Counted from the stretch's first letter, positions 27,240-54,247 are shown. The stretch is DNA of 64,000 nucleotides from an uncultured Ignavibacterium sp. (GCA_964436775.1 CAYTEN010000001.1:27261-91260), one strand, 5' to 3'. The notes: a model not told the origin generated them from the letters alone. Program-made: numbers and translations.

Positions 27240-27482
27240 TAACTTTTATTGTGTTACTTAATTTAAGTCAAGATGTCTATTAATCTCAAGTAAAAATTTG
27301 ATTTAAGAATCTGCTTTAAAATAGATTCAAATAATTAGAAATTTAGTATTATATATTTATCATTACTTAATAAATTCTCAGGTTTATGGAGTTTTTAACT
27401 TTAATAATATAAGATTGTTATTATTTAATCTTATTTTTCCGACAGAATAAATTTGGATCTTGTACAAAATGTCAGGACACAG

Positions 27483-35342: not shown

Positions 35343-35451
35343 GTTATTACTAAAAAAATGGGTTTCTTGTAATTGTTCTTTTATATATTTAACTCTTAAA
35401 ATCGAATTAAAAAAAGATTAACATATAATTATATATTTCGGAGGAAATAAA

Positions 35452-36645
35452 ATGAAAATAATTCTTAGGCTAATGATGATCAGCATGTTGTTCGGCTTAT
35501 TGGGTGCTGTATCGTATGGACAAGGTGAATCTGCTGTTCCATTTCTGTTACTAGCTCCCGATTCACGCGCCGGTGGTCTAGGTGAATCTGGTACCGGTCT
35601 AGCAGATAATTCTTCTGCTATTTTTTGGAATCCTGCAGGAATTGCATTTCAAACTGGAACAGAGGTTAGCATTACGCATAGTAATTGGTTACCCCAATTT
35701 AATCTGGATTTATTCTACGACTACCTTACCTATAAGCAATATATTGAAGAGTTGAGTGGAAGTATTACTGGTAGCATAACTTATATGAATTTTGGTGAAT
35801 TTGTAAGAACAGGCGAGAATGATCCAACACCGCTTGGAACATTTAGATCATTTGATGCAGCTCTTACACTTGGTTATGCAACAAAGGTTTCTTCTGATTG
35901 GGGATTGGGGCTTAATTTTAGAATAATTCATAGCCGTTTATCAGATCAAGGTGTTGGTGAAGAAAAAGGGCAAGGTGTAGCAACTTCTGTAAGCTTTGAT
36001 GTTGCTACGATGTGGAGACCGGATAAATTTGTTATACCACTCATCGATGAAGATATTGGTAATAAAATAAGTCTTGGTATTAATCTAAGCAATTTGGGTC
36101 CAAAAATTTATTATATAGATAAAGCTCAAGCTGACCCTATCCCAACTAATTTCCGGTTAGGTTTTGCATATAAAGTAATATCTGATGAATTCAATAGTTT
36201 GATCTATACATTGGATTTTAGCAAACTTCTTGTAAACAAAACTACAACCCAGGTAATTTCCGGTACAGATACTTCAACAGTTTCTCATTCAGATGAATGG
36301 TACAAAGCTATATTTACAGCTTGGGGCAATAAACCATTTCGAGAAGAACTAAGAGACATTGTAACTTCAATGGGACTAGAATACTGGTATGGAACTCCAG
36401 GTGATTTTCTTTTTGCTTTAAGAACAGGGTTCTTTTATGAAGATCCATCTTATGGAAATAGAAAATTTGTTACTTTCGGTGCCGGTATTAGATATGACAT
36501 TTACGGTTTTGATTTCAGTTACATTACAACATCAGTTTTTAAAGGTGGAGAAAACCATCCGCTATCGGACACTTTGAGATTTACTGTACTAATTGGTTGG
36601 GGTGCTGTTCCGGAATCAACCGGAGGATTGCCAAGGGGAATCTAA
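35452..36645 (+). CDS. porV: T9SS outer-membrane shuttle/channel protein PorV (LptO)
   Basis: Signal peptide then 'ESAVPFLLLAPDSRAGGLGESGTGLADNSSAIFWNPAGIAF', the characteristic PorV/PorQ N-terminal motif. Beta-barrel strands end in an aromatic-rich C-terminus. Confidence 0.85.
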   Translation: MKIILRLMMISMLFGLLGAVSYGQGESAVPFLLLAPDSRAGGLGESGTGLADNSSAIFWNPAGIAFQTGTEVSITHSNWLPQFNLDLFYDYLTYKQYIEELSGSITGSITYMNFGEFVRTGENDPTPLGTFRSFDAALTLGYATKVSSDWGLGLNFRIIHSRLSDQGVGEEKGQGVATSVSFDVATMWRPDKFVIPLIDEDIGNKISLGINLSNLGPKIYYIDKAQADPIPTNFRLGFAYKVISDEFNSLIYTLDFSKLLVNKTTTQVISGTDTSTVSHSDEWYKAIFTAWGNKPFREELRDIVTSMGLEYWYGTPGDFLFALRTGFFYEDPSYGNRKFVTFGAGIRYDIYGFDFSYITTSVFKGGENHPLSDTLRFTVLIGWGAVPESTGGLPRGI

Positions 36646-36651
36646 TTTAGT

Positions 36652-39600
36652 ATGAATAAAGTTCTTCTTTCCATTGCTGTTTGTATTATTACTTTGGGCA
36701 GTTTATCTGCCCAAAGTTTTGTTGGAAAAATTAATCCTTTCCCAAATCAATCTGTTCAAGCTGCTACTGATGATACAATTAAAATTTTAGCTGTTATGGT
36801 CAACTTTCAGGAAGATCGCGATGGTGCTACGTTTGGCAATGGTAAATTCGGATCTATTTATTCTAAAGATTATAGTAATGATATTCTTGATCCGTTACCG
36901 CACAATAAAGAATATTTTGAATCCCATCTTACATTTGTGAAAAATTATTATCAAAACGTATCAGAAGGTAAAGTTCACCTTTCGTTTACAGTTCTGCCGG
37001 ATACTTTTTCAGTTTCTAAAACTATGAGAAACTTTGCACCCGATATTAATTCTAGTGATTTTACGACACTTGGACAATTCGCGCAAGAAGTTTGGACAAA
37101 AGCTGATCAGATGAATCCTGGTTTTAAATTTTCTGATTATAATGTATTTCTAATTTTTCATGCAGGAGTTGGACGAGATATTTCTTTACCTGGAAGTTTA
37201 GGAAATGAGCGAGATTTACCTTCAGTTTATATAAGTGAAAACTCTCTTAAAAATATTTTTGGACAAAGCTTTGATGGGTTTCCTGTATCAAATGGATCTT
37301 TTAAAATTAAAAACAGCATGGTTATTCCGGAAACAGAAAGTAGAGAACTCGATGGTATTTCAGGAAAAGTTTTATTCGAAATAACAATAAATGGTTTGTT
37401 AGTGGCTAGTGTTGCAAGCCATTTAGGTTTGCCAGATCTTTTTGATACTGCAACAGGATTAAGCGCCATAGGAAGATTTGGTTTGATGGATGGACAAGCC
37501 ATCTTTGCTTATAACGGATGCTTTCCACCAGAGCCATCTGCTTGGGAAAAAATATATTTAGGATGGGCAGAACCTGTTACTGTTAATCCTGGTAATTATG
37601 ATATAGATCTGGTAACAAAATTAGCAGCAACAGTATCCGATACTGTTATTTTAAAAGTGCCTCTAAACTCATCCGAGTATTATTTAATTGAAAACAGACA
37701 GAGGGATGCTTTGAAAGATGGAGCAAAAGTAACTATTAAATCTAACGGTAATAATTTCACAAAAACTTTTCTAAATGATACAACCGGATTTTATAGTTAT
37801 AATACTGACTCGTTGTCAGGTGTGATTGAAGATGTAGATGAATATGATTGGGCTTTGCCTGGCAATGGAATTGTTATTTGGCACATAGATCAAAATGTTA
37901 TCGATGAAAAAATAGCTGACAACAAAATCAATACAAATAAAACAAGACGTGGTGTGGATGTTGAAGAAGCTGACGGTGTGCAGGATATTGGAGAAACCTT
38001 TACAACAATATTTGGTGATCAAGTAGTGGGTGAAGGAACCGCACAAGATTTTTGGTATGCAAACAACAAAGCAAAACTATATAAAAATAGATTTGATAAA
38101 GATACAAGACCAAATACAAACACAAATACTGGCGCAAATAGTTTAATTAGCTTCAATAATTTTTCTTCAATCTCAAACAAAATGTCTTTTAAATTAGAGT
38201 ATGGAGATTCGGTTATTAAACCGATCTTTGCGAAAGAAATTAATTTTCAATATCCAGTTTATAATTTATCCAAAGGATCAAACCCCAACAAAAATCAATT
38301 CTGTTTTTTAGTGGGTACAGATTTAATAATTTTTGAAGATGATACAAAAATAGATTCAATACCCGAATTTTCATCATTCAAGATATCTTCAGTTTACTTC
38401 AATAATACTACCTATTATGTTGGAACTTTAGAAAATAAGCTTAATGTTTTTATGGATAATGGCACTCAACAATATTTATCTCGTTTTTCATTAAATACAG
38501 TAATAGATGCTCCACCATTGATTGTAAAAGATCCTATTGATAATTATAAAATTTTGATTGCAACGGATGATCAAAAAATCATTTCTTATTCGTTAGGCAG
38601 TTTACCATCAAACAATCCAGATACTCTAAGAATTCAAACTTTCCCAACTGATGTTAGGTTCTCTAAAGTAGCTTCAGATGGAAATGAAGTTGTTGCAATT
38701 GGAAGTAATCTTATTAATCTCTATAATCCTTACTCCTTAATTGTTGCAGATGGATTTGAGTATAAATTAAATAATGAAAGATTTATCGACTTAGCTTTAA
38801 GCAAAGATGCGGAGAATAAATCTATTTATGTGGCACTGACTGCTGATAATAATTTTTATATTTTTGTCGATAAAAAACTCTATTCAACTTTTTCATTGCC
38901 ATCATCAGTTCCAATAATTTCATTTTCGCTTGTTGATTTGAAACAAGATGGAAATAATTATATTGTTTTCACAGATGGTAAAAAACTTGAGGCTAGAAAT
39001 TTAACTGGCGCTTCAGCCATCAATTTCCCAAAGTCAGATCCTCAGGGCAATAACTTTGTTGGGACTCCATTGGCTATGGATTTTGAAGGAGGAAATAATG
39101 CTGAGATTATATCTTATACTAAAGATGGGAGAATATTTGCTTTTGATGGCAATACAGGAAAAATTGTAAATGGTTTCCCGATCAGTGTTGGCAATAATAT
39201 TGATGTTATCCCTGTCCTTTTTAATAGTAATAATAAATCATCTTTAGCAGTAATAGACAGTAAAAAATATTTCTCTACATGGAATATCGGATCTACTGTG
39301 GGAACATTATTCTGGGCAGAAGAAAACGACGACAACCAAAATACATCTTTTGTAACTGCTGCAAAAAATTCAAATTTCATAAATCAGTTTTTCCCTACAA
39401 GTCGTGCTTATAATTATCCAAATCCTGTTTATAATGGACAAACAGCAATACGTTATTACGTTGATGAAGATTCTAAAATAAATATTAAAATTTTTGATCT
39501 TGCCGGAGGATTAGTTGCCGAATTAAATAATGAGGCAAGAGGTGGATATGATAATGAAACTATTTGGAAAGTCAGTGATATTCAAAGTGGAGTTTATCTT

Positions 39601-39672
39601 GCAAGAATTGAAGCGATTGGAATCAGTGGAAAATCAGAATCTGTTATAATTAAAATTGCTGTGGTGAAATAA
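36652..39672 (+). CDS. M6 (immune inhibitor A)-like domain protein with degenerate active site, beta-propeller-like repeats and T9SS C-terminal domain
   Basis: 'IKILAVMVNFQEDRDG' and 'SHLGLPDLFDT...GLMDG...PSAWEKIYLGW' resemble M6 peptidases. No HExxH occurs anywhere in the ORF. C-terminal 'YNYPNPVYNGQTAIRYYV...GVYLARIEA...IKIAVVK' is a Por_Secre_tail. Confidence 0.6.
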   Translation: MNKVLLSIAVCIITLGSLSAQSFVGKINPFPNQSVQAATDDTIKILAVMVNFQEDRDGATFGNGKFGSIYSKDYSNDILDPLPHNKEYFESHLTFVKNYYQNVSEGKVHLSFTVLPDTFSVSKTMRNFAPDINSSDFTTLGQFAQEVWTKADQMNPGFKFSDYNVFLIFHAGVGRDISLPGSLGNERDLPSVYISENSLKNIFGQSFDGFPVSNGSFKIKNSMVIPETESRELDGISGKVLFEITINGLLVASVASHLGLPDLFDTATGLSAIGRFGLMDGQAIFAYNGCFPPEPSAWEKIYLGWAEPVTVNPGNYDIDLVTKLAATVSDTVILKVPLNSSEYYLIENRQRDALKDGAKVTIKSNGNNFTKTFLNDTTGFYSYNTDSLSGVIEDVDEYDWALPGNGIVIWHIDQNVIDEKIADNKINTNKTRRGVDVEEADGVQDIGETFTTIFGDQVVGEGTAQDFWYANNKAKLYKNRFDKDTRPNTNTNTGANSLISFNNFSSISNKMSFKLEYGDSVIKPIFAKEINFQYPVYNLSKGSNPNKNQFCFLVGTDLIIFEDDTKIDSIPEFSSFKISSVYFNNTTYYVGTLENKLNVFMDNGTQQYLSRFSLNTVIDAPPLIVKDPIDNYKILIATDDQKIISYSLGSLPSNNPDTLRIQTFPTDVRFSKVASDGNEVVAIGSNLINLYNPYSLIVADGFEYKLNNERFIDLALSKDAENKSIYVALTADNNFYIFVDKKLYSTFSLPSSVPIISFSLVDLKQDGNNYIVFTDGKKLEARNLTGASAINFPKSDPQGNNFVGTPLAMDFEGGNNAEIISYTKDGRIFAFDGNTGKIVNGFPISVGNNIDVIPVLFNSNNKSSLAVIDSKKYFSTWNIGSTVGTLFWAEENDDNQNTSFVTAAKNSNFINQFFPTSRAYNYPNPVYNGQTAIRYYVDEDSKINIKIFDLAGGLVAELNNEARGGYDNETIWKVSDIQSGVYLARIEAIGISGKSESVIIKIAVVK

Positions 39673-43848: not shown

Positions 43849-45159
43849 ATGAAATTACCTTTAGTTGCAATAGTAGGCAGGCCCAACGTAGGAAAATCTA
43901 CACTTTTTAACAGATTGTTAGGGAAAAGGGAAGCCATAGTTGATGATAAAAGCGGTGTAACACGCGATAGAAATTACGGCGAGTGTGAATGGAACGGAAA
44001 AATGTTCAGATTGATAGATACCGGTGGCTTTGTTCCTGAATCAACTGATCAATTTGAATCTGCGATTCGTGAACAAGTTGAAGTAGCTGTTAATGAGGCT
44101 GATGCAATTATTTTTCTTGTTGATTTAAAGGCTGGCGTAAATCCAATCGATAACGTTATTATTAACATGCTCAGGCAATCCAATAAAAAATATTATTTAG
44201 TTGTTAATAAAGTAGATGCCGAAGTGCATGTTGCTGCTGCATCTGATTTTTATTCTTTGGGTGTTGACACGATCTATGATATTTCTGCAGTAAGCGGGAG
44301 ACACACAGGAGATTTGCTAGACGGAATCACCCAAGATTTTCCAACAATGGATTTGATTGAAGAAGATAAACGATTAAAGATTGCAATTGTTGGAAGACCG
44401 AATGTCGGTAAATCATCTTTAACCAATGCTCTGTTAGGGAGTACACGAAGTATTGTCACAGATATTCCAGGAACAACACGTGATAGTCTCGACTCAGTAT
44501 TGAAATATTATAGTGAAGAAATTATCTTGATTGATACAGCAGGATTAAGGAAAAAGAAAAAAATTGAAGAGAGTATTGAATTTTTCTCAAACATCAGAAC
44601 ATATAAAGCTATTAGCGAAAGTGATGTAGCTGTTGTAATGATTGAAGCTAAAGTTGGATTTGAAAAACAAGATCAAAAAATTATTGATGAAGTTGTTAGA
44701 TGGAGGCGGGGTTTAATAATAGCAGTTAATAAATGGGATCTAGTGGAGAAAGAAACAAATACAGCTCGAGAATTTGAAAAAACAATTAAAGAAAAATTAG
44801 GTACAGTAGATTATGCCCCAATAATATTTATTTCTGCGTTAACAAAGCAAAGAATATTTAAACTGCTTGAACTTTGCCAAAAAATTCAGAGTGATAGAGT
44901 AAAAAAGATTCCTACGTCAGAACTAAATGATACTTTATTACCAGAGATTGAAAAAAATCCACCTCCCGCATCACCAACCGGAAAAGATGTGAGGATTAAA
45001 TTTATTTCTCAAGTGGGCGAACATTATCCTATATTTTTATTTTTTGCCAATTTCCCCAAATATATTCCGGACCATTACCGTAGATTTTTAGAAAGATTAA
45101 TTAGAAGAACTTATGGTTTCGAAGGTGTTCCGATCACAGTTAGTTTTAGGCAAAAATAA
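43849..45159 (+). CDS. der: Ribosome-associated GTPase Der (EngA)
   Basis: Two G domains ('GRPNVGKSTLFN', 'DTGG'; 'GRPNVGKSSLTN', 'DTAG', 'NKWD') plus a KH-like C-terminus. Confidence 0.95.
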   Translation: MKLPLVAIVGRPNVGKSTLFNRLLGKREAIVDDKSGVTRDRNYGECEWNGKMFRLIDTGGFVPESTDQFESAIREQVEVAVNEADAIIFLVDLKAGVNPIDNVIINMLRQSNKKYYLVVNKVDAEVHVAAASDFYSLGVDTIYDISAVSGRHTGDLLDGITQDFPTMDLIEEDKRLKIAIVGRPNVGKSSLTNALLGSTRSIVTDIPGTTRDSLDSVLKYYSEEIILIDTAGLRKKKKIEESIEFFSNIRTYKAISESDVAVVMIEAKVGFEKQDQKIIDEVVRWRRGLIIAVNKWDLVEKETNTAREFEKTIKEKLGTVDYAPIIFISALTKQRIFKLLELCQKIQSDRVKKIPTSELNDTLLPEIEKNPPPASPTGKDVRIKFISQVGEHYPIFLFFANFPKYIPDHYRRFLERLIRRTYGFEGVPITVSFRQK

Positions 45160-45173
45160 ACAGTAATAATATT

Positions 45174-45803
45174 ATGAATAAAAATTTTTTTCTCATAGAG
45201 CATCCCATAATTAAAAGGGATGTTACTATTTTGCGAGATGTTAATACCACTTCTGAAACATTTCGTGCAGCCTTACAGAGAGTATCAAACATTTTAGCCG
45301 TTGAGATATCAAAAAACTTTAAACTTTCAGCAATCAATGTTGAAACTCCGCTCGAAGAAACATCAGGATCAAAATTAACACACGATGTAATTCTCGTCCC
45401 TGTCTTAAGGGCTGGTCTTGGAATGGTGAACGGATTTCTGCAGATCATTCCAGAAGCAAAAGTGGGACATATAGGATTGCAACGAGATGAGGAAACACTG
45501 AAACCCATAGAATATTACTACAAAGTTCCCAAAAATTTGAAAATGGCTGAAGTAATTATGATTGATCCGATGCTTGCTACTGGCGGAAGCGCATCTGAAG
45601 CATTAAAGTATCTTAAACAAAGAGGTGCAACAAAATTAGTATTCGCTTGTCTTGTTGCTGCCCCTGAAGGAATAAAAAGAATTGAAAAGAATCATCCGGA
45701 TATCAAAATATTTGCAGCCGCTTTAGATCGTGAATTAAACAGCAAAGGTTATATTCTTCCCGGATTAGGAGACGCAGGTGATAGAACATTTGGTACACTT
45801 TAA
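45174..45803 (+). CDS. upp: Uracil phosphoribosyltransferase
   Basis: 'LVPVLRAGLGM', PRPP loop 'IMIDPMLATGGSA', and 'YILPGLGDAGDRTFGT'. Confidence 0.95.
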   Translation: MNKNFFLIEHPIIKRDVTILRDVNTTSETFRAALQRVSNILAVEISKNFKLSAINVETPLEETSGSKLTHDVILVPVLRAGLGMVNGFLQIIPEAKVGHIGLQRDEETLKPIEYYYKVPKNLKMAEVIMIDPMLATGGSASEALKYLKQRGATKLVFACLVAAPEGIKRIEKNHPDIKIFAAALDRELNSKGYILPGLGDAGDRTFGTL

Positions 45804-46818
45804 TTCTAAAAAAATATTTGTTTTTTTATCCCTCTTCGCCCTCACACAAATTTCTGCTCAAGTTTATCCGGATAAGTCAATTCATAATACTTTAAAGGCT
45901 GGTATTAAATTAATTGTTGAGCAAAAATATAATGATGCACAAAAATTATTTGATCAATTCGATAAATCAAGGAGTGATCTGCCACTAGGTAAAATCTATT
46001 TGGCTGCAACTCAAATTGCAAAATGCTTCGATTATCAAGAACCTTTTAATGATGAATTAATTACGCCTTATTTGGAAAGTGCTAAAAGTATTTCTGAATC
46101 GTTGTTAAATAAAGATGATAAAAATATTTGGTATAATTACTTTTTTGCTTTAACACAGGGTTATATTGCCTATTACGATGCTCTAAAGGAAGATTGGTTT
46201 TCGGCATTTTCAAATGGGTTAATTTCGGTTAGAGCTTTTGATTATTGCTTAGAGCTGGATCAAAATTTTTATGAATCTTTTATAGCAATTGGTAATTATA
46301 AATTTTGGCGAAGTAAAAAAACTGAATTCTTGAATTGGCTGCCATTTGTACCTGATGAAAAAGAACTTGGGATAGATTATCTTAAAAAAGCAATTAATCA
46401 ATCAGGATATAATTCACATCTTGCAATTCATTCACTAATTTGGATATACATTGAGCAAGAGGAATATTCTAAGGCAATCGAGATTGCAGATTCGGCGCTT
46501 AAAAGGAATCCTCAATCGAGACTTATCAAATGGGGATTAGCAAGAGCTTATGAAAATGTTGAGCCTGTAAAAGCGGTTGCACTATATGGAGAAATATTGC
46601 TCTCTTATCCAACTGACCTAATATTAAATAAAATAAATGAGGTTACACTTAAACATTTGATTGCTCAACAAGAGGCTAAATTAGGCAAAAAACAGCAAGC
46701 ACTTGATCTTTGTAACGAAATTCTTGGCATAAAAGGATATAATGACTTTGAACTTAATAAACTAAACAATAGACTTGGTAGGGTAAGGGATCTGAAAAAC
46801 GAACTGATGCTAAAATAA
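45778..46818 (+). CDS. Secreted helical (TPR-like) protein of unknown function
   Basis: Hydrophobic signal-like 'KKIFVFLSLFALTQISAQ' then helical repeats. The start codon is uncertain: the listed GTG overlaps the upp end. Confidence 0.5.
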   Translation: MIEHLVHFNSKKIFVFLSLFALTQISAQVYPDKSIHNTLKAGIKLIVEQKYNDAQKLFDQFDKSRSDLPLGKIYLAATQIAKCFDYQEPFNDELITPYLESAKSISESLLNKDDKNIWYNYFFALTQGYIAYYDALKEDWFSAFSNGLISVRAFDYCLELDQNFYESFIAIGNYKFWRSKKTEFLNWLPFVPDEKELGIDYLKKAINQSGYNSHLAIHSLIWIYIEQEEYSKAIEIADSALKRNPQSRLIKWGLARAYENVEPVKAVALYGEILLSYPTDLILNKINEVTLKHLIAQQEAKLGKKQQALDLCNEILGIKGYNDFELNKLNNRLGRVRDLKNELMLK

Positions 46819-46911
46819 TTTTTTCTAATTGACCCATCTCGCCCTTTAACAATTCATTAAAAAAAATTAAATTGATTCCGATTTATAAAACGTTGTATAG
46901 TATTTATCAAT

Positions 46912-49083
46912 ATGTCTGTCAGTAATCCAAAATATCAAAAAATGCTTGACAATCTTTTGAGGATTTGCAAAACGAGTTTACCAAAAGTAGACGAAGCAAT
47001 GATAACAAAGGCTTTTGAGCTAAGTTTAGAAGCGCACAAGAACGATAGGCGTGCTTCTGGAGAACCATATTTTACGCATCCTTATGAAGTAGCAATGGTA
47101 GTTGCTGAAGAATTTCCTCTTGATGATATTACTATTGTTAGTGCTTTATTGCATGATGTGATTGAAGATACTGAGTTTGATTTCGATCTTATCCGAAGAG
47201 AATTTGGGAAAGAGATTGCTGAAATTGTTGATGGTGTTACAAAGATAAGCGGCATATTTCGTGGACACGATATAACAAAAGCGGAGAACTACCGTAAACT
47301 TTTACTTTCAATGGTTAAAGATGTTAGAGTAATTTTAGTAAAATTTGCTGATCGTCTTCATAATATGCGAACATTAGAGTTTGTAAATCCGGATAAGCAA
47401 AGAAGAATAGCCCAGGAGACTTTAGAAATCTATGCACCATTTGCACATCGATTTGGTTTAGGAAAAGTTAAATGGGAACTGGAAGATCTTTCATTCAAAT
47501 ACTTAAATCGTGAAGCTTATGAAGAGCTTGCAAGAAAATTAAAAGCCAAAAGAAAAGACCGTGAGTCATATATAAAAAAGTTTTCAGATCCACTTATAAA
47601 AAATCTTAACGAAGCAAAAATAAAATTTGAAATGAGTGGCAGGGTAAAACATTTATATAGCATTTACAGAAAAATGGTAAGAAGAAACAAACCATTTGAA
47701 GAGATTTATGATCTATTTGCAATAAGGATTATTCTTGATACAGCTAATCGAAACGATTGTTACACAACTTTGGGTATTGTCAATCAAATCTATCTACCCG
47801 TTCCTGATAGATTTAAGGATTATATTTCTATCCCAAAAACAAATAACTATCAATCAATTCATACAACAGTTGTAGGCCCTGAGGGTAGACTTGTTGAGAT
47901 ACAAATACGTACAAACCAAATGCACGAGGTAGCTGAAAAAGGTGTAGCTGCTCACTGGCGTTATAAAGAAAACAAAACAGTTTCTGATGGTGAACTGGAA
48001 AATTGGGTTAATTGGATTCGGGACATTTTTGAAAATGCTTCGAAAGATGATCAGAAAAAAGAATTATTAGAAAATTTCAAACTTAATCTTTACCAAGATG
48101 AAATTTACGTTTTTACACCTAAAGGTGATTTAAAGAGATTACCAGTTGCCTCAACTCCTGTGGATTTTGCATTTGACATTCATAGTAAAGTTGGATTCCA
48201 TTGTATAGGCGCTAAAATTGATGGTAAAATAGTTCCCCTGGATACAGAATTACACAGCGGCGATCAAGTTGAAATTATTAGTTCAAAGAATCAACATCCA
48301 AACAAAAACTGGATAAAATTTGTTAAGACTCAAAAAGCAAAAAATGAAATAAGGAAATGGTTAAATAAAGAAGAGCAGACTATTGTAAACAGCGGTATGG
48401 AAATATGGGAAAAGAAATTAAAAAAAATGAAGTTATCTTTTACACCTGATAATGTCTTACAAATTGCTCATTCTAATAAGTTTGATAATTCAAGACAATT
48501 CTACAAGGCAATAGCTCAAAATCAAATTAATATTGATGAAGTGCTAACGGCCACAACAGAAAAGAATAAAAAGGAATTCGAAAAGGATGCCGAGTTCGAT
48601 AAGTTTGCAAACGTAGCTAGAACGGATATAGGTGGGATTTTAGTTGATGGAAAGAAATCAAGTATACTTTACAACTATGCTAAATGTTGTAATCCCATTC
48701 CTGGTGATCCTGTGATTGGTTATATTACAGTAGGTGAGGGGATAAAAATACATCGTAAAACGTGTGCTAATCTAATTAATTTATCCTCAAATGACGCAAG
48801 TAAGTTAGTCAGTGTGCAATGGCCGGAAGCAGAAGGATCACTATTTGTAGCTGGTATTTCTATTAAAGGTAAAGATAGACCAGGAATTCTTAACGATGTT
48901 TCGCATTCAATAGTAACATTTCAAAACACGAATATTAAATCAATAAATATAAATACCAGTGATTCAGTGTTTGAAGGCAGCGTAACAGTTTATGTAAACA
49001 ATCTTGATCATCTTAATAGAATAATAGAAAGATTAAAAAAAGTTCAAGGTATTTTTAATGTCGAAAGATTCGAAAGTAATTGA
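46912..49083 (+). CDS. relA: Bifunctional (p)ppGpp synthetase/hydrolase RelA/SpoT homologue
   Basis: HD hydrolase 'LLHDVIEDT', synthetase 'LYSIYRKM...IYDLFAIRIIL' and 'YQSIHTTV', TGS 'IYVFTPKGD', and a C-terminal ACT-like domain. Confidence 0.95.
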   Translation: MSVSNPKYQKMLDNLLRICKTSLPKVDEAMITKAFELSLEAHKNDRRASGEPYFTHPYEVAMVVAEEFPLDDITIVSALLHDVIEDTEFDFDLIRREFGKEIAEIVDGVTKISGIFRGHDITKAENYRKLLLSMVKDVRVILVKFADRLHNMRTLEFVNPDKQRRIAQETLEIYAPFAHRFGLGKVKWELEDLSFKYLNREAYEELARKLKAKRKDRESYIKKFSDPLIKNLNEAKIKFEMSGRVKHLYSIYRKMVRRNKPFEEIYDLFAIRIILDTANRNDCYTTLGIVNQIYLPVPDRFKDYISIPKTNNYQSIHTTVVGPEGRLVEIQIRTNQMHEVAEKGVAAHWRYKENKTVSDGELENWVNWIRDIFENASKDDQKKELLENFKLNLYQDEIYVFTPKGDLKRLPVASTPVDFAFDIHSKVGFHCIGAKIDGKIVPLDTELHSGDQVEIISSKNQHPNKNWIKFVKTQKAKNEIRKWLNKEEQTIVNSGMEIWEKKLKKMKLSFTPDNVLQIAHSNKFDNSRQFYKAIAQNQINIDEVLTATTEKNKKEFEKDAEFDKFANVARTDIGGILVDGKKSSILYNYAKCCNPIPGDPVIGYITVGEGIKIHRKTCANLINLSSNDASKLVSVQWPEAEGSLFVAGISIKGKDRPGILNDVSHSIVTFQNTNIKSININTSDSVFEGSVTVYVNNLDHLNRIIERLKKVQGIFNVERFESN

Positions 49084-49517
49084 TGATTTTATCTGATGAA
49101 AACAGAATAATGGGAATTGATTACGGTAATAAAAGAATTGGCATATCACTTTCTGATCCTTTAAAAACTTTTGCGTATTCATATTCTGCGATTCAAAATA
49201 ATAATCGGAAATTTATTGAGCTTGGACAAGTAATAAAGGAAAAGGGGATTGTTAAGATCATTTTGGGAATACCAAATGAAATTAAACCTTCATCAACTTC
49301 TATTGTAGAAGATGTAAAGAAATTTAAATTAGATTTGGAAAAAAAATTTAGTCTTGAAGTAATACTTTGGGATGAAACCTATACTTCTGTAATTGCGGGT
49401 CAGAGGATACTAGAGTCAATTAAAAGTAAAAAGAAACGGAAAGATAAATCACTTCTTGATATGGATTCTGCTGCCATCATTCTTCAAGAATATTTGGATT
49501 CTGTTAGTAAAAATTAA
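49083..49517 (+). CDS. ruvX: Holliday junction resolvase-like nuclease RuvX (YqgF)
   Basis: 'MGIDYGNKRIGISLSD', 'IILGIP', 'WDETYTSV'. The true start may be the ATG at 49110, since family members usually begin just before 'GIDYG'. Confidence 0.88.
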   Translation: MILSDENRIMGIDYGNKRIGISLSDPLKTFAYSYSAIQNNNRKFIELGQVIKEKGIVKIILGIPNEIKPSSTSIVEDVKKFKLDLEKKFSLEVILWDETYTSVIAGQRILESIKSKKKRKDKSLLDMDSAAIILQEYLDSVSKN

Positions 49518-49521
49518 CAGA

Positions 49522-49550
49522 TTGACTTTGCCTCTCATAGAACCTATTTT
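49522..49550 (+). promoter_or_regulatory. Possible sigma-70-like promoter for the BMC-domain gene pair (TTGACT - 17 nt - TATTTT)
   Basis: Hexamers at 49522..49527 and 49545..49550. A GGGAG Shine-Dalgarno-like box lies about 8 nt before the ATG at 49583. Confidence 0.3.
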
Positions 49551-49582
49551 TTAATATTAAAATTATTATTGGGAGCACGCAA

Positions 49583-49870
49583 ATGCTATTTGAATCATTA
49601 GGTATTATCGAAACTGGCAGTGTTTCAAGTTCATTGAAGGTTATCAATGAATTTAATAAAATGAGTGACATTAAACTTATTGGAAATCAAGTCTTAGGTG
49701 ATGGAATAGTTTCGGTTTTTGTAAAAGGACATTTGGGAGCAATCCGGAAATCTTTGAATCACGGAGCAGAAATCCTAAATTACTCAAATGAGTTTCGAGG
49801 GTCCCATGTAATTCCTATGCCTCATAAAGATTTACTTTCAAAATTTAAATTGGAAAGAAATGATTTATGA
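49583..49870 (+). CDS. BMC-domain (bacterial microcompartment hexamer-type shell) protein
   Basis: 'LGIIETGSVSSSLKVINEFNKMSDIKLIG...GDGIVSVFVKGHLGAIRKSLNHGAE...SHVIPMPHKDL' aligns position by position with the PduA/EutM/CcmK pattern 'LGMVETKGL.AAIEAADAMVKAANV.LVG..KIGSGLVTV.VRGDVGAVKAA.DAGA....VG.....HVIPRPH.DV'. Confidence 0.85.
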   Translation: MLFESLGIIETGSVSSSLKVINEFNKMSDIKLIGNQVLGDGIVSVFVKGHLGAIRKSLNHGAEILNYSNEFRGSHVIPMPHKDLLSKFKLERNDL

Positions 49871-50673
49871 TAAACTCCATTGGATTAATTGAATCTAAAG
49901 GTTTTGTTGCTTTAGTGGAAGCAGCAGATGTTATTCTGAAAAATTCTCCAGTAAAAATACTTGGAATTAAAAAACTGGAAAACGGTATAGCCTCTCTTTC
50001 TATTTATGGTGAATCAGAATATGTAAAATCAGCCGTTGAGTCAGCAACTGAGGCGGGAAAAAGAGTAGGTGAAATTTATGCATATTCAGTAGTGGATAAC
50101 CCGAGCGATGAATTGTTAAATATCATTAGTGAAATATTTGATTTAGAAGATGGGAAATTTTCTAACTCCCTAAAAACAGATTTAAAACTAGTTGAAAAAA
50201 AAGAGAAAAAGGAAACCATCTTAGAGGAAATTTCTAGCTTAAATGAGTCAACTGTAATAAAAAGTGATAAAGAAATATCAACCAAAATAAATAAATCAAA
50301 ACAAGAAAAAAGATTATCAAATAAACCCCCATCTGTTGTTCAAAAGAAATCGAGACCAGTAAAAGTTATTTATTCTGAATCGGGTTCAGATTCAAAAGAT
50401 ACTCTAAGTACGATTGAGAGATTACGCCAGGAAGCTTTAGGATTGTCTTTTGAGGATGAAAAAAGGGGGAAAAATGATTCTCATAGGATAAAAATTGAAA
50501 ATAAAAATAATATTCCGAATAACTCAAGAGTCGACTTTGAATTAATTAATGGTATGAATGTTCATAAATTAAGAAATTATGCTCGTGGATTTGAGGATTT
50601 TCCAATCAAAGGACGGCAGATTTCAAAAGCAAACAGAGACGAGCTGATTGATCTATTTAAAACTATTAGTTAA
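49867..50673 (+). CDS. BMC-domain shell protein with long C-terminal extension
   Basis: The N-terminal ~90 aa 'IGLIESKGFVALVEAADVILKNSPVKILGIKKLENGIASLSIYGESEYVKSAVESATEAGKRVGEIYAYSVVDNP' form a clear BMC domain. About 180 aa of K/S/E-rich sequence follow. ATGA overlap with the previous gene. Confidence 0.85.
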   Translation: MINSIGLIESKGFVALVEAADVILKNSPVKILGIKKLENGIASLSIYGESEYVKSAVESATEAGKRVGEIYAYSVVDNPSDELLNIISEIFDLEDGKFSNSLKTDLKLVEKKEKKETILEEISSLNESTVIKSDKEISTKINKSKQEKRLSNKPPSVVQKKSRPVKVIYSESGSDSKDTLSTIERLRQEALGLSFEDEKRGKNDSHRIKIENKNNIPNNSRVDFELINGMNVHKLRNYARGFEDFPIKGRQISKANRDELIDLFKTIS

Positions 50674-50716
50674 CTATCATATTAGTATTATTAATTTTTG
50701 TCATTAAGGCTAGCAA

Positions 50717-51631
50717 TTGAAAAATAAAGTTGTCATAATAATTTTTTCACTTATTTTCTCAATAATTGTTTGGGGCTCTATTACTCTTTCTGATGAATTT
50801 TTCACTTCCTACGATTTAAATGTTGTGACAATTAATACTCCAAAAGGTTTTGTTTGTGGAGAAACAAATCCTAAAACAATTGAAGTAAAATTGAAGGCAA
50901 AGGGATGGCAGCTCTTAAATCTTAATCTGAATCCATCGACGGAATTTTTTGTATCAGTCAGTGGTGATAGTGGTTCTATTACAGCCGATGCTTATAACCA
51001 AATTCCGGAAAACACCTGGCTTGGCTCTGGGACAAGTATTATTGATATATCACCGAGGAAAATTTCTCTTGATGTTGAAAAAATAAAAATAAAAAAAATT
51101 AAGGTTGAAGCAGTCACTGATTTAACCTTTCAAAAGGGATATGGACTAGCAACCCATATAAAAATATATCCAGATTCTGTGTTAGTTGCAGGCCCAAAGA
51201 GTGCAATTGAAAAAACATTTTCGGTTAAAACAAAAAAGATTTCATTTAAATCTCTTGATAGAAATACCAAGATAATAACAGAGTTGGATGATTTACCCGG
51301 ATTTGAATATCAGCAAAACCAAGTTGAACTTACATTTGATGTTCAACGGATAGTTGATAATTTGGTTGAAGGAATTAAGGTTGTAGTAAAGAATATACCA
51401 AGAGATCGAGATGTTGTTCTCATTCCAAATTTTATTAATTGCAGTTTAAGAGGCGGCATAAATATAATTGGTAAGATAACCTCGGATCAAATTACTGCCT
51501 CAATAGATTATAGAGACATAATACTAGATACACTTGGAAGCCTCAAACCTACAGTTAACATTCCAGCTAACTCCGAGCTATTGTATACAAAACCCGAAGA
51601 ACTGAGATACATTATCAAAAAATTTGAATAA
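50717..51631 (+). CDS. YbbR-like domain membrane-anchored protein (tentative)
   Basis: N-terminal TM, then repeated ~90-aa beta-rich units with 'P..V.V.G' style motifs ('PDSVLVAGPKSAIE', 'INCSLRGGINIIGKI'). TTG start. The family call is tentative. Confidence 0.45.
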   Translation: MKNKVVIIIFSLIFSIIVWGSITLSDEFFTSYDLNVVTINTPKGFVCGETNPKTIEVKLKAKGWQLLNLNLNPSTEFFVSVSGDSGSITADAYNQIPENTWLGSGTSIIDISPRKISLDVEKIKIKKIKVEAVTDLTFQKGYGLATHIKIYPDSVLVAGPKSAIEKTFSVKTKKISFKSLDRNTKIITELDDLPGFEYQQNQVELTFDVQRIVDNLVEGIKVVVKNIPRDRDVVLIPNFINCSLRGGINIIGKITSDQITASIDYRDIILDTLGSLKPTVNIPANSELLYTKPEELRYIIKKFE

Positions 51632-51654
51632 TCAAGAAAGTCAATTTTTATAAT

Positions 51655-52281
51655 ATGTTCATTTCATTTGAAGGTATAGATTTTTGCGGTAAATCAACGC
51701 AAGTTGAATTATTAAAAAATTATCTTATTAAGAATGGTAAAAAAGTACATCTAATTCGTGAACCTGGTGGGACGGAAATCTCTGAAAAGATTAGAGAAAT
51801 TTTACTTGACAAAAAAAATAATTCGATGGTAATGGAAGCAGAAGTATTTTTATTCTCTGCGAGCCGCGCACAATTAGTCAGAGAAATAATTCGTCCATAT
51901 TTGGAAAAAGGTTATTATGTAATTTCTGATAGATTTCATGATTCATCCACAGCTTACCAAGGTTATGGAAGAGGTTTACAACTAGATTCTATTTTAAAAA
52001 TTCATAATTTAGCCATCGGTAATACTATCCCAGATATAACATTTATAATTGATGTTCCAACTTCTGTTGCATTTGAACGAAAGAGAAAAAAATCTCTTAC
52101 CTCGTTGGATAGAATTGAATTATCAAAAAATACTTTTTATGAGCAAGTGCGAGTGGGATATCTGGAATTGGCAACTAAAGAAAACCGTTTTCGCGTGATT
52201 GACGGAACAAAAAATATTGAAGAAATTCATCAAAAAATTATCCATGAAATTAATTCCTTGGAAGGAACTAAACTTATATGA
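51655..52281 (+). CDS. tmk: Thymidylate kinase
   Basis: 'ISFEGIDFCGKSTQ' P-loop, 'REPGGT', 'DRFHDSSTAYQG'. Confidence 0.95.
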   Translation: MFISFEGIDFCGKSTQVELLKNYLIKNGKKVHLIREPGGTEISEKIREILLDKKNNSMVMEAEVFLFSASRAQLVREIIRPYLEKGYYVISDRFHDSSTAYQGYGRGLQLDSILKIHNLAIGNTIPDITFIIDVPTSVAFERKRKKSLTSLDRIELSKNTFYEQVRVGYLELATKENRFRVIDGTKNIEEIHQKIIHEINSLEGTKLI

Positions 52282-53933
52282 AGAGACGTAAGATTATTTT
52301 ATATACATCATTAACGGTTCTTTTGCTTTTCACATTCGGATTCGTTGTAAGTAAAAGCGATGTATATTTTGAGATAAGCAAAAACCTTGAGCTGTTTGGA
52401 AAAGTTTATAAAGAGATTTCGTTTAACTATGTAGATGAAGTTGATCCAAAAGAATTTATGAGAGCTGGTATTAAAGGAATGTTAAATAAACTGGATCCTT
52501 ACACAGTTTTTATTGATGAAAAAAATCAGGATGATATTGACATTTTAACAAACGGTAAATATGGCGGAGTTGGGATATCAATAGGTGTGCGTAGTGATAA
52601 AGTGACTGTTTTAGAAGTCTTGGAAGGGTATTCGGCTCAAAAGCAAGGCATTAGAGTTGGCGATAATATCATTAGAATACAGAACACTGATGTCAATCCT
52701 GAAGTATTAGATAAAATTTCTTCTTTAGTAAAGGGTGAGCCTGGAACTACTGTACAGCTTAAAGTATTAAGAACTGGTGAACAGGATACATTGACATTTA
52801 ATCTTGTTAGAGAAGAAGTGAATGTTAAAACTCTTTTATTTGAGGATTTTTATCCTCAAAACTCTGGAAATGTGTACTTAAAGCTTTCCAATTTTAGCAG
52901 ATCTGCAAGCGATGAGATAAGAAATGCTTTAAGAAAGTTAAGAGAAGAAAGAGAAATAAAATCTATTGTTCTTGATCTTAGAGGAAACCCTGGTGGACTA
53001 TTAGATGTTGCAGTTGATATTTGTGATAAATTTTTAAAAAAGGATTTACTTATTGTAACTACTAGAGGAAGGGAGCCACAGAGCGATAAAAAATATTATG
53101 CGAAAGAGGAACCATTAGCTGGAAATGAAAAATTAGTTGTATTAATAAATGGTGGTAGTGCTTCTGCTTCAGAGATTGTTGCTGGTGCTATACAGGATCA
53201 TGATAGAGGTATTATTTTAGGCACTAAATCTTTTGGTAAAGGATTAGTACAAACCATTACACCCTTAAGCTTTAATACATCCTTAAAAGTTACTACGGCC
53301 AGATATTATACACCCAGCGGAAGATGTATTCAAAAAATAAATTATTCTGAAAATAATAGTGTGATACCATTTCCGGATTCATTAGTGACAAATTCGTTTA
53401 ACACGGATAATAAAAGAGTTGTATATAGTGCTGGTGGAATTACTCCTGATACTACAGTTCAAGATGATGTGGAAAGTAAATTAGTTGAGGATCTGTTGGC
53501 AAAAGGATTAATATTTAATTTTGCAGATAAATATTTTTATGAAAATAAAAACACGTCATTTGATAAAATTAATGATAATAAACTGCTAGATGAGTTTAAA
53601 AAATATCTAATTACATCTAAATATAATTATCAATCATTAGCTGATAAAAAGTTGGATGAATTAGTGAAGTTAATTTCTGATGAACAGAATGCCGAACAGA
53701 TAAGTACAACAGTTAAAAATTTGAAAAATCAAATTTCAGGAATGTTTGATTCAGAATTCAAAAATAGTAAACAAGATATAATCAGTGATTTAAAGACTGA
53801 ATTGTCACTCAGATACTCTGGCAGAGAATTTGGGATTAGAGAGATTTTAAAACACGATTCACAATTTGCTGCTGCGCTCAAAATTATTAGCGACAATAAA
53901 GTATATAATAATTTACTCAAAAGGGATTTATAG
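52278..53933 (+). CDS. S41 family C-terminal processing peptidase with PDZ domain
   Basis: PDZ 'GYSAQKQGIRVGDNIIRI', 'LDLRGNPGGLL', catalytic region 'GGSASASEIVAGAIQDHDRGIILGTKSFGKGLVQ'. Confidence 0.9.
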   Translation: MKRRKIILYTSLTVLLLFTFGFVVSKSDVYFEISKNLELFGKVYKEISFNYVDEVDPKEFMRAGIKGMLNKLDPYTVFIDEKNQDDIDILTNGKYGGVGISIGVRSDKVTVLEVLEGYSAQKQGIRVGDNIIRIQNTDVNPEVLDKISSLVKGEPGTTVQLKVLRTGEQDTLTFNLVREEVNVKTLLFEDFYPQNSGNVYLKLSNFSRSASDEIRNALRKLREEREIKSIVLDLRGNPGGLLDVAVDICDKFLKKDLLIVTTRGREPQSDKKYYAKEEPLAGNEKLVVLINGGSASASEIVAGAIQDHDRGIILGTKSFGKGLVQTITPLSFNTSLKVTTARYYTPSGRCIQKINYSENNSVIPFPDSLVTNSFNTDNKRVVYSAGGITPDTTVQDDVESKLVEDLLAKGLIFNFADKYFYENKNTSFDKINDNKLLDEFKKYLITSKYNYQSLADKKLDELVKLISDEQNAEQISTTVKNLKNQISGMFDSEFKNSKQDIISDLKTELSLRYSGREFGIREILKHDSQFAAALKIISDNKVYNNLLKRDL

Positions 53934-53974: not shown

Positions 53975-54247
53975 ATGAAAATGAACAAAGCGATAATTAA
54001 AAAAGATCCATTACTCGACCAATGTCCTTCATGCAAAATGAATAATACAATTAGGAGATCCCACTCCCGTAACTTAAAAGAGAAATTCTTTAATCATTTT
54101 ACTATTTACAAAACATATCGTTGCAAGAATTGTGGGTGGAGAGGATACTTAAAAACGATCACTCTAAGTACTTCAACTATTAAAGTATTTCTGATTTATT
54201 TATGTCTGATAATAATTGCCGGATTTATTACTTATCAGATTTTGTAG
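53975..54247 (+). CDS. Small zinc-ribbon protein with C-terminal TM helix
   Basis: 'CPSCK...RRSHSR...YRCKNCGWRG' (CxxC...CxxC), then 'IKVFLIYLCLIIIAGFITYQIL'. Confidence 0.5.
   Translation: MKMNKAIIKKDPLLDQCPSCKMNNTIRRSHSRNLKEKFFNHFTIYKTYRCKNCGWRGYLKTITLSTSTIKVFLIYLCLIIIAGFITYQIL

What the first reader, a model, noticed from the sequence alone, without database searches (positions are those of the whole stretch)
50137..50673. BMC-domain protein carries a ~180-aa disordered tail ending in a SAP/Rho_N-like helix-extended-helix motif
Seen: after the BMC domain (about aa 1-90), the second ORF continues with K/S/E-rich low-complexity sequence ('KKEKKETILEEISSLNES...KSKQEKRLSNKPPSVVQKKSRPVK'). It ends in 'FELINGMNVHKLRNYARGFEDFPIKGRQISKANRDELIDLFKTIS' (about 50536..50670). 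That pattern (h..h.V..LR.hA+.h.I.G.s.hsKa.R.ELI.hh) resembles the Rho N-terminal / SAP / LEM-type HeH fold, which in known proteins binds nucleic acid. Inference: a shell-type hexamer tethered to DNA or RNA, or to another partner, through a flexible linker. I do not recognise this architecture from described BMC systems.
Basis: partly seen in the sequence, partly recalled or inferred. Interest (0 to 1): 0.7.

Follow-up and report, generated by a model that had tools for sequence, protein, structure and literature searches.

The report
Microcompartment shell protein with tethered end-domain
This is a real, conserved shell protein of a bacterial protein organelle. It carries a long floppy tail ending in a small, positively charged helical knob, an architecture already catalogued in one sentence in 2021, and the knob probably anchors or positions the organelle in the cell.

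Summary
ORF 49867..50673 encodes a BMC-H domain (aa 1-90), about 130 aa of K/S/E-rich disordered linker, and a compact domain of about 47 aa at the C-terminus. It is not a fusion artefact: the same architecture occurs in 308 species-level genomes. All 80 best loci are Ignavibacteriota and share the order relA-ruvX-BMC-BMC(tail)-ybbR-like-tmk-ctpA.

The end-domain is more conserved than the BMC domain. Every informative example sits at the C-terminus of a BMC-H protein.

The HeH/Rho_N reading is only partly supported. AlphaFold gives helix-loop-helix with high confidence. Rho_N is the commonest weak Pfam match (13 of 60 members), and hhalign against verified Bacillus Rho_N gives P of about 5e-4. 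Nothing reaches a curated threshold, and Foldseek finds nothing significant. Nucleic-acid binding is untested.

The architecture is not new. Sutter et al. [quoted passage not shown]

My best reading is a minor shell hexamer that displays six tethered basic knobs on the outer face and acts like EutK or PduK in positioning the compartment. Interest is moderate to low.

The parts
49583..49870 (+). Upstream partner BMC-H (95 aa), translationally coupled by a 4-bp overlap. Its edge motifs are derived (FNKMSD / IPMPH instead of KAAN / PRPH).
   Evidence: Pfam BMC E=1e-12. A BMC-H gene lies immediately upstream of the tailed gene in nearly all related loci.
49867..50673 (+). Whole tailed BMC-H gene (268 aa plus stop).
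49867..50136 (+). BMC (PF00936) domain, aa 1-90. The edge Lys is kept (LKNSPV) but the canonical Arg is lost (VDNPS instead of IPRPH).
   Evidence: Pfam E=4.8e-16. AlphaFold2 pLDDT 89-95. Edge motifs.
50137..50406 (+). Linker 1, aa 91-180: K/S/E-rich, predicted disordered, variable in sequence and length among orthologues.
   Evidence: pLDDT below 50 for aa 103-152 and 158-177. The alignment is gappy and unconserved here. Composition.
50407..50442 (+). Conserved short amphipathic helix STIERLRQEALG, aa 181-192 (family motif h..LR.EA).
   Evidence: Invariant T182, I183, R185, L186, R187, E189, A190 and G192 in 26 sequences. Helix 182-190 with pLDDT about 78. The motif is present in 190 of 277 tailed BMC-H proteins, and in 151 of 158 with linkers of 120-160 aa.
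50443..50529 (+). Linker 2, aa 193-221: variable and predicted disordered.
   Evidence: pLDDT below 50 for aa 198-217..
50530..50670 (+). C-terminal ordered domain, aa 222-268: short helix, helix, FPIKGR loop, kinked helix. It is HeH/Rho_N-like, basic, and found only on BMC-H proteins.
   Evidence: pLDDT 85-92 in the full-length model and 87.6 for the domain alone. Eight invariant and seven near-invariant positions across 60 diverse members. Weak Rho_N and SAP similarity. Located within 12 aa of the C-terminus in 346 of 353 proteins, always with a BMC domain when the protein is complete.
50717..51631 (+). Downstream YbbR-like membrane protein (304 aa). It is a syntenic neighbour in Ignavibacteriota only, and no functional link is shown.
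   Evidence: Pfam YbbR E=2.7e-4, just under the cut-off. It is adjacent in the Ignavibacteriota loci but absent next to the pair in L003-L006.
49080..49517 (+). ruvX (YqgF), the conserved upstream neighbour in Ignavibacteriota. Context only.
   Evidence: Pfam RuvX E=4.9e-33. Synteny.

Best explanation
The gene encodes the tailed hexamer of a FRAG1-type bacterial microcompartment, one of the scattered shell-gene loci typical of Ignavibacteriota. It is made together with the BMC-H encoded just upstream.

**Proposed mechanism.**
- The N-terminal BMC domain inserts into the shell as a hexameric tile.
- The C-terminus of BMC-H lies on the outer (cytosolic, concave) face. Each hexamer therefore displays six flexible tethers of about 130 residues.
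- Each tether carries a short amphipathic helix and ends in a small basic three-helix knob with a Rho_N/SAP-like helix-extended-loop-helix topology.
- The knob binds a highly conserved, probably polyanionic ligand. My preferred candidate is nucleoid DNA, or RNA.
- The tailed hexamer would then act like EutK or PduK, as a minor shell component that spreads and positions the compartments rather than building the facets.

**Shown.** Domain architecture, disorder, conservation, exclusivity to BMC-H, pairing with a second BMC-H, and the predicted fold.

**Inferred.** Outward display (from solved shells of other BMCs), the nature of the ligand, and the positioning role.
For: **Architecture and conservation.**

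**The knob is under stronger constraint than the shell domain.** Across 71 Ignavibacteriota species its core has 69% mean pairwise identity, against 50-56% for the two BMC domains. It stays nearly unchanged in Planctomycetota proteins with 15-30-aa linkers. This points to a ligand that is itself highly conserved.

**The knob is basic.** Net charge is positive in 263 of 277 proteins, median +4. The invariant residues are R22, R26 and R36, with K/R at further positions.

**Similarity to Rho_N and SAP is weak but consistent.**

**The knob occurs only on BMC-H C-termini.**, using the proteins.

**It belongs to genuine metabolosome gene sets.** In a Planctomycete locus the tailed BMC-H sits directly beside an aldehyde dehydrogenase, a BMC-H and two BMC-T genes.

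**Literature.**
- Deleting eutK leaves Eut compartments static at the poles. The EutK tail is positively charged and was proposed to bind nucleotides. The PduK extension also affects compartment location (PMC12487888).
- FRAG1 loci are described as having this tailed BMC-H 'analogous to EutK' (PMC8217296 supplement).
Against: - No direct evidence exists for any ligand.
- The similarity to Rho_N and SAP is below every curated or conventional threshold.
- HeH folds also mediate protein-protein contacts; LEM binding BAF is an example from my own knowledge. In Rho, the RNA contacts are made mainly by the adjacent OB fold, also from my own knowledge.
- Strict restriction of the domain to BMC-H proteins could equally mean that its partner is specific to BMCs.
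- The window protein's own knob has a net charge of only +1 to +2.
- The linker is a polyampholyte, not consistently basic: net charge ranges from -78 to +18.
- No ParA/McdA-like gene was seen beside the pair in the four non-Ignavibacteriota loci (L003-L006).
- In the window's lineage both hexamers have lost the canonical edge Arg, so normal incorporation into a shell is itself an assumption.
Confidence: 0.4

Rival explanations
1. The knob, and possibly the STIERLR helix, is a protein-protein adaptor. It recruits a BMC-specific partner to the shell surface or cross-links tiles like a capsid cement protein. Candidates are another shell tile (the BMC-P triplet or PduT-like BMC-T), the PduS/T pair, or a cytosolic enzyme feeding the compartment.
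For: - The domain is found only on BMC-H proteins, as expected for a partner that exists only where BMCs exist.
- The internal h..LR.EA amphipathic helix, flanked by disordered linkers, resembles encapsulation peptides as defined in PMC8217296.
- Weak SAM-like Pfam matches occur in 9 of 60 members (SAM_KIDINS220).
- FRAG genomes give no hits with known encapsulation-peptide HMMs, so recruitment must work some other way (PMC8217296 supplement).
Against: - The knob stays nearly invariant while the co-encoded BMC-H and the protein's own BMC domain diverge strongly in Ignavibacteriaceae. This argues against those tiles being the ligand.
- The tail is expected on the outside of the shell, so it is not a classical cargo-loading peptide.
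- No conserved candidate partner gene accompanies the pair outside Ignavibacteriota.
Confidence: 0.3
2. The tail is mainly an entropic brush. A long disordered polyampholyte on the outer shell face keeps compartments from clumping or sets their spacing, and the terminal knob only caps or weakly self-associates.
For: - Linker length is maintained at 120-160 aa in 158 of 277 proteins, while its sequence is free to vary.
- The PduK disordered extension influences compartment distribution (PMC12487888).
Against: - The knob is the most conserved part of the protein.
- The knob persists in proteins whose linker is shorter than 40 aa, 50 of 277. A brush would not explain that.
Confidence: 0.1
3. In Ignavibacteriaceae, including this window, the pair no longer builds a closed shell. 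It has been taken over as a hexameric scaffold for some housekeeping process encoded around it (relA/spoT, ruvX, tmk, ctpA).
For: - Both hexamers have lost the canonical (P/A)RPH Arg and the KAAN Asn. In Ignavibacterium album the motifs are degraded further.
- The pair sits in a same-strand block conserved across the phylum in the loci examined.
- There are no other BMC genes in the 64 kb window.
Against: - Synteny within one phylum is expected from vertical descent. It is not kept in other phyla.
- Melioribacteraceae have the same block with fully canonical motifs, and M. roseus has seven BMC-P genes elsewhere.
- FRAG1 genomes carry a BMC-P triplet.
- I could not scan the window organism's genome for BMC-P.
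Confidence: 0.1
4. The tail is an annotation or assembly artefact: a missed stop, a frameshift, or read-through into junk low-complexity sequence.
For: None. A few database entries consist of the tail alone. These are short fragments or split ORFs, for example L018, which has a 280-aa BMC ORF followed by a 53-aa tail ORF.
Against: - The ORF is continuous.
- Full-length orthologues cover 100% of the query.
- The end-domain is nearly invariant.
- The architecture is present in the great majority of the 80 genomes examined.
Confidence: 0.01

Closest known systems
FRAG1 BMC-H with large C-terminal extension (Sutter, Melnicki, Schulz, Woyke, Kerfeld 2021, Nat Commun 12:3809, supplementary locus descriptions)
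   Same: - Same phylum (Ignavibacteria).
[quoted passage not shown]
- Shell genes are scattered away from any enzymes.

The window protein is a member of this catalogued group.
   Different: - The catalogue gives one sentence and assigns no fold or function.
- It says the partner BMC-H has standard interface motifs. That holds for Melioribacteraceae-type pairs but not for the window's lineage.
EutK (ethanolamine-utilisation BMC-H with a C-terminal helix-turn-helix domain, Pfam PF16365 EutK_C)
   Same: - A BMC-H domain followed by a small, positively charged, ordered C-terminal domain that is thought to bind nucleic acid.
- A minor shell component.
- Its deletion mislocalises the compartments to the poles (PMC12487888).
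   Different: - There is no sequence relationship between the end-domains. PF16365 never appears in Pfam scans at E<=10.
- No EutK chain appears in the PDB sequence or Foldseek searches.
- The NCBIfam EutK model matches only the BMC part, aa 1-88.
- The EutK linker is short; here it is about 130 aa and contains an extra conserved helix.
[quoted passage not shown]
   Same: - A BMC-H with a long disordered C-terminal extension.
- The extension is reported to influence the subcellular location of the compartments (PMC12487888).
   Different: - The PduK extension carries a putative metal or Fe-S binding motif (PMC8217296, Supplementary Data 6) and no terminal ordered knob.
- No sequence similarity to it was detected.
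Rho_N (PF07498), SAP (PF02037) and HeH/LEM (PF12949) helix-extended-loop-helix modules
   Same: - Same size and same predicted topology.
- Same signature on the first helix (L..h.V.ELR.LA+), with a Gly in the loop and '+..ELI..h' on the second helix.
- Sub-threshold matches recur in a constant register.
   Different: - The loop is 5 residues longer, with its own invariant FPIKGR motif.
- Scores are below all gathering cut-offs.
- No significant structural match was found.

Membership tests
BMC-H shell protein (Pfam PF00936, single domain) | One PF00936 domain above Pfam's gathering score | tested here: met
   58.9 bits against a cut-off of 24.5, aa 4-79. The AlphaFold2 model of aa 1-90 has pLDDT 89-95.
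BMC-H shell protein (Pfam PF00936, single domain) | [quoted passage not shown] | tested here: not met
   The window has LKNSPV and VDNPS: the Lys is kept, the Asn and Arg are lost. The upstream partner has FNKMSD and IPMPH. Relatives in Melioribacteraceae and other phyla keep VKAANV and IPRPD. The protein is therefore a specialised hexamer, not a basal one.
BMC-H shell protein (Pfam PF00936, single domain) | Forms hexamers that are incorporated into a closed shell | not testable with these tools
   This needs expression, structure determination or multimer modelling.
FRAG1-type BMC locus (Sutter et al. 2021) | [quoted passage not shown] | tested here: met
   compared with the description retrieved.
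FRAG1-type BMC locus (Sutter et al. 2021) | A BMC-P triplet (green, grey and orange clades) elsewhere in the genome | not testable with these tools
   Only 64 kb of the genome is available.
Rho_N (PF07498) | Score at or above the Pfam gathering cut-off (24.9 bits) | tested here: not met
   The window domain gives no Rho_N hit at E<=10. Thirteen of 60 family members give weak hits, best E=2.9e-4. Hits examined individually scored 11.6-16.1 bits.
Rho_N (PF07498) | Profile-profile similarity to verified Rho N-terminal domains | tested here: inconclusive
   hhalign probability 31-39%, P=3e-4 to 5e-4, 36-41 aligned columns, above 300 of 300 shuffles. Against E. coli Rho the probability is only 1.4-2.4%.
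Rho_N (PF07498) | Three-helix bundle with a helix-extended-loop-helix core | tested here: inconclusive
   The predicted secondary structure fits. Foldseek gives no significant match: the best PDB hit has E=2.8, and the best viral-library hit is a Rho_N protein at E=0.63.
SAP (PF02037) | Score at or above the Pfam gathering cut-off (23.9 bits) | tested here: not met
   Five of 60 members hit, at 14.9 bits or less, covering only profile positions 1-17.
EutK C-terminal domain (PF16365) | Sequence match to the EutK_C model or to the solved EutK C-terminal domain | tested here: not met
   Absent from all Pfam scans at E<=10 and from the PDB sequence and fold searches.
Encapsulation peptide (amphipathic helix of about 15-20 aa on a flexible linker) | A short conserved amphipathic helix flanked by poorly conserved linker | tested here: inconclusive
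   STIERLRQEALG has its hydrophobic residues at i, i+3, i+7 and i+8 and is flanked by disorder. It is only 10-12 aa long, sits on a shell protein rather than on cargo, and is expected to lie outside the shell.

The most novel reading that the evidence does not exclude
The terminal knob is a true nucleic-acid-binding HeH module that hitches FRAG1 compartments to the nucleoid, giving them a built-in partition device that needs no ParA. In Ignavibacteriaceae the hexamer pair has lost the canonical tiling residues and sits in a core block (relA-ruvX-...-tmk) conserved across the phylum. There it would have become a vertically inherited, constitutively used scaffold rather than a facultative catabolic organelle.
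Probability: 0.12. Interest if true: 0.75.

Novelty: new member of a known kind. Interest (0 to 1): 0.4.

Why it matters
FRAG-type microcompartments are among the least understood BMCs. They have no known cargo, no recognisable encapsulation peptides, and shell genes scattered around the genome.

The tailed hexamer is their most distinctive component. Its end-domain is more conserved than the shell fold itself, so whatever it binds is central to how these organelles work.

Recent work shows that EutK and PduK, the other BMC-H proteins with C-terminal additions, control where compartments sit in the cell. A third, unrelated end-domain doing the same job would suggest that tailed hexamers as positioning devices are a general design principle.

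It would also offer a compact outward-facing tag for engineered shells. Two cultured hosts are available for testing: Melioribacter roseus and Ignavibacterium album.

Tried and rejected
- **PDB sequence searches** with profiles of the tail (A2, A3, A4) gave only chance-level hits: MORC2, mL116 and fumarase, E>=0.055.
- **Foldseek of the domain model** found nothing significant against PDB. The viral library gave Rho_N and SAP proteins among the top hits, all at E>=0.6.
- **hhalign against the E. coli Rho N-terminus** gave probability 1.4-2.4%. That Rho is too divergent to be informative.
- **SAM-domain reading** (SAM_2, SAM_KIDINS220 weak hits). I rejected it as the main reading because the domain has about 45 residues and three to four helices, against five helices in about 65-70 residues for SAM. 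The hits are no stronger than those to Rho_N.
- **DDHD and YodN hits on the linker** I put down to low-complexity noise.
- **A functional link to the flanking ruvX and ybbR-like genes** is not supported. The adjacency holds only within Ignavibacteriota and is absent in four loci from other lineages.
- **Stand-alone copies of the domain.** All 75 BMC-less hits are fragments of 176 aa or less, or split ORFs. Many still carry linker or IPRP remnants.
- **Promoter and terminator scan** showed no excess over shuffles and was uninformative.
- **Taxon names for the short-linker relatives** were mostly unavailable.
- **The literature search** found no paper linking microcompartments with SAP, Rho_N or helix-extension-helix.

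Full report
**What is in the sequence.** ORF 49867..50673 (+) is continuous and encodes 268 aa.
- Residues 4-79 match Pfam BMC PF00936 at 58.9 bits, E=4.8e-16.
- The ORF overlaps by 4 bp an upstream 95-aa ORF (49583..49870) that is also a BMC domain (E=1e-12).
- The 64 kb window holds no other BMC-domain gene.
- The window has 32% G+C.
- The flanks are housekeeping genes on the same strand: der, upp, a TPR protein, relA/spoT, ruvX, then the two BMC genes, then a YbbR-like membrane protein, tmk and ctpA. By synteny with L001, an alternative-complex-III cluster follows.

**Anatomy of the tail.** AlphaFold2 on a 26-sequence alignment gives these regions:

| Region (aa) | Prediction |
|---|---|
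| 1-90 | confident BMC fold, pLDDT 89-95 |
| 103-152, 158-177, 198-217 | pLDDT below 50, disordered |
| 182-190 | short helix, pLDDT about 78 |
| 222-268 | ordered module, pLDDT 85-92 |

- The terminal module consists of helices 224-228 and 232-240, a nine-residue loop (GFEDFPIKG), and helices 250-254 and 257-266.
- Folded alone with a more diverse alignment, the module reaches pLDDT 87.6 and pTM 0.70.
- The linker (aa 91-221) is 43% K+S+E with net charge +6.
I add that the tail contains a second conserved island, STIERLRQEALG (aa 181-192).

**It is not an artefact.**
- A whole-protein search returned 333 homologues. The best 120 all cover 98-100% of the query, are 251-302 aa long, and are 43-94% identical. 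Where named, they come from Ignavibacteria.
- In the alignment the BMC domain is moderately conserved and the linkers are unalignable and vary in length. The STIERLR island and the last 45 residues are nearly invariant.
- A scan of one genome per GTDB species found 308 genomes encoding the end-domain. The best 80 are all Ignavibacteriota, including Ignavibacterium album and Melioribacter roseus.
- In essentially all of these, where the contig allows, the order is upp-(TPR)-relA-ruvX-BMC-BMC(tail)-ybbR-like-tmk-ctpA.

**The end-domain belongs to BMC-H proteins.**
- A profile of the domain finds 727 clusters (at 50% identity) among 1.84 billion proteins at E<=1e-3, and 440 at E<=1e-10.
- Of the 353 proteins in hand, 278 have an N-terminal BMC domain. 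The other 75 are all 176 aa or shorter. They are partial ORFs or split genes, and many still show linker or 'IPRPDD' remnants.
- The domain lies within 12 residues of the C-terminus in 346 of 353. Only the best 150 of the 727 clusters were listed, so the rest are unchecked.
- Relatives with short linkers (150-170 aa in total) and fully canonical BMC motifs occur in Planctomycetota and unnamed lineages.
- In a Planctomycete contig the tailed gene sits directly beside an aldehyde dehydrogenase, a BMC-H and two BMC-T genes. In two other contigs the pair (plain BMC-H plus tailed BMC-H) stands alone among unrelated genes.
- The conserved unit is therefore the pair. The ruvX and ybbR neighbourhood is a feature of one phylum.

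**How conserved, and what varies.**
- Across 71 Ignavibacteriota species the core of the end-domain has 69% mean pairwise identity (minimum 49%). The tailed BMC domain has 50% and the upstream BMC-H 56%, with minima of 15%.
- Linker length ranges from 0 to 324 aa (median 131). Linker net charge ranges from -78 to +18.
- The end-domain has positive net charge in 263 of 277 proteins (median +4).
- The h..LR.EA helix is present in 190 of 277 proteins, and in 151 of 158 with linkers of 120-160 aa.
- Edge motifs split the phylum. Melioribacteraceae-type pairs are canonical: upstream VKAAKV/IPRPH, tailed VKAANV/IPRPD. Ignavibacteriaceae, including the window, are derived: window upstream FNKMSD/IPMPH, tailed LKNSPV/VDNPS. 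I. album is more degraded still.

**Is it HeH, Rho_N or SAP?**
- The window's own last 50 aa give no Rho_N or SAP hit. They give only SAM_2 at E=0.09.
- Scanning 60 diverse members one by one, Rho_N is the most frequent weak match: 13 of 60, best E=2.9e-4. SAM_KIDINS220 follows with 9, PDH_C with 8 and SAP with 5.
- Rho_N and SAP hits fall in one register. Profile positions 1-16 lie on 'LxxhxVxELRxLAR', and sometimes the match runs through both helices. In the ten members scanned individually they score 11.6-16.1 bits against cut-offs of 24.9 and 23.9.
- I recalled the B. subtilis Rho N-terminus and verified it. A database protein is 100% identical and carries PF07498.
- hhalign of the 60-member profile against that sequence gives probability 39%, P=3.1e-4 and 36 columns. 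It beats 300 of 300 shuffles (best shuffle 17.2 against 22.1).
- Against a 22-sequence Bacillaceae Rho_N alignment it gives probability 31%, P=5.1e-4 and 41 columns, with a five-residue insertion in the BMC-tail loop.
- Against E. coli Rho the probability is only 1.4-2.4%.
- Foldseek finds nothing significant in PDB (best E=2.8). In the viral library the top hit is a Rho_N-domain phage protein at E=0.63, with two more Rho_N proteins and a SAP protein further down.
- PDB sequence searches give only noise.
- My verdict: the topology and a consistent trail of weak matches favour a divergent HeH/Rho_N-like module, at about 0.6. It fails every membership threshold and should not be filed as Rho_N or SAP.

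**What is already known.**
- Sutter et al. 2021 state that BMC-H extensions of up to 200 residues exist, mostly C-terminal. They also say that Ignavibacteriae have 'FRAG' compartments whose shell genes are scattered over up to six loci (PMC8217296).
[quoted passage not shown] Encapsulation-peptide HMMs find nothing in FRAG genomes.
- Axen et al. 2014 report seven BMC-P genes in five loci in M. roseus (PMC4207490).
- The architecture is therefore catalogued, and the window gene is a further member. I found no paper that names the fold of the end-domain or links BMCs with SAP, Rho_N or HeH.
- The analogy to EutK is one of architecture only. EutK_C (PF16365) never appears in any scan, and no EutK chain appears in the PDB searches.

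**How it most likely works.**
- *Established elsewhere:* the N- and C-termini of BMC-H lie on the external face of the shell (PMC6787980). Deleting eutK leaves Eut compartments static at the poles. The EutK tail is positively charged and was proposed to bind nucleotides. The PduK disordered extension also affects compartment location (PMC12487888).
- *Inferred here:* the tailed hexamer is a minor tile that presents six tethered knobs to the cytosol.
- The knob is basic and more constrained than the shell fold. It is unchanged between lineages whose BMC domains have diverged beyond recognition of the edge motifs. This argues for a ligand that is itself nearly invariant.
- I favour nucleic acid (nucleoid tethering and partitioning) at about 0.35-0.4. 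A BMC-specific protein partner comes close behind at about 0.3.
- The internal amphipathic helix could be a second contact point. Its role is open.

**Limits.**
- I could not examine the rest of the window organism's genome.
- I could not model multimers or complexes, inspect model coordinates, or see the 577 lower-ranked clusters.

Noticed in passing
window 49583..49870 and 49867..50136; loci L052, L054, L082: Within Ignavibacteriota the canonical hexamer edge motifs decay stepwise. Melioribacteraceae keep KAA[KN]/IPRP[HD]. The window's lineage has K..../IP[ML]PH and LKNSPV/[VI][DE]NPx. Ignavibacterium album has VDKFGV/IAVPH and LKNTSV/LEKLN. The C-terminal knob stays nearly invariant throughout.
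   Followed up: partly
window 43849..53933; loci L007-L086: The two BMC genes sit inside a same-strand block (der-upp-TPR-relA-ruvX-BMC-BMC-ybbR-like-tmk-ctpA) kept across Ignavibacteriaceae and Melioribacteraceae. This is unusual for shell genes, which normally travel with catabolic islands.
   Followed up: partly
window 50717..51631: A 304-aa protein with an N-terminal hydrophobic segment and a sub-threshold YbbR match (21.7 bits against a cut-off of 22.3). It always lies directly downstream of the tailed BMC-H in Ignavibacteriota. No cdaA-like partner was seen nearby.
   Followed up: partly
window 21470..23317: A 615-aa protein with an HU-type Bac_DNA_binding match at aa 1-57 and a SPOR (peptidoglycan-binding) domain at aa 551-611, separated by about 490 residues with no family match. 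It would be a DNA-binding to cell-wall-binding fusion.
   Followed up: no
window 27453..28622 and 31368..39672: A type IX secretion cluster: a PorU-like C25 peptidase (1324 aa), PorV (397 aa), and two proteins with Por_Secre_tail sorting domains (1006 aa and 389 aa).
   Followed up: no
window 16815..19829: A 1004-aa protein made almost entirely of TPR repeats (TPR_6 263.8 bits), followed by a 531-aa ORF (19826..21421) with no Pfam match at E<=1e-5.
   Followed up: no
window 54529..about 62100: An alternative-complex-III-like cluster: a multihaem cytochrome, a 1033-aa molybdopterin/4Fe-4S subunit, and NrfD-like and ActD-like subunits. I inferred this from synteny with the annotated locus L001.
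   Followed up: no
window 53975..54247: A 90-aa ORF with two CxxC pairs (weak zinc-ribbon matches) and a C-terminal hydrophobic segment. It is conserved in position in L001 (94 aa, no Pfam match).
   Followed up: no
L018 (CAVOPZ010000020.1), L001/L017, L061: Some long-read MAGs show split genes. In L018 the tailed BMC-H is broken into a 280-aa ORF plus a 53-aa tail ORF. relA is fragmented into 4-9 pieces in L001/L017 and L061. These are probably indel errors, and they explain the apparent 'stand-alone' copies of the end-domain in protein databases.
   Followed up: partly
L003/L004 10001..14160: A compact Planctomycete shell-plus-enzyme set: tailed BMC-H (151 aa, linker about 15 aa), aldehyde dehydrogenase (543 aa), BMC-H (98 aa), a 210-aa CsoS1D_N protein, a 207-aa BMC protein, and a 119-aa ORF with no family match that could be an unrecognised component.
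   Followed up: no
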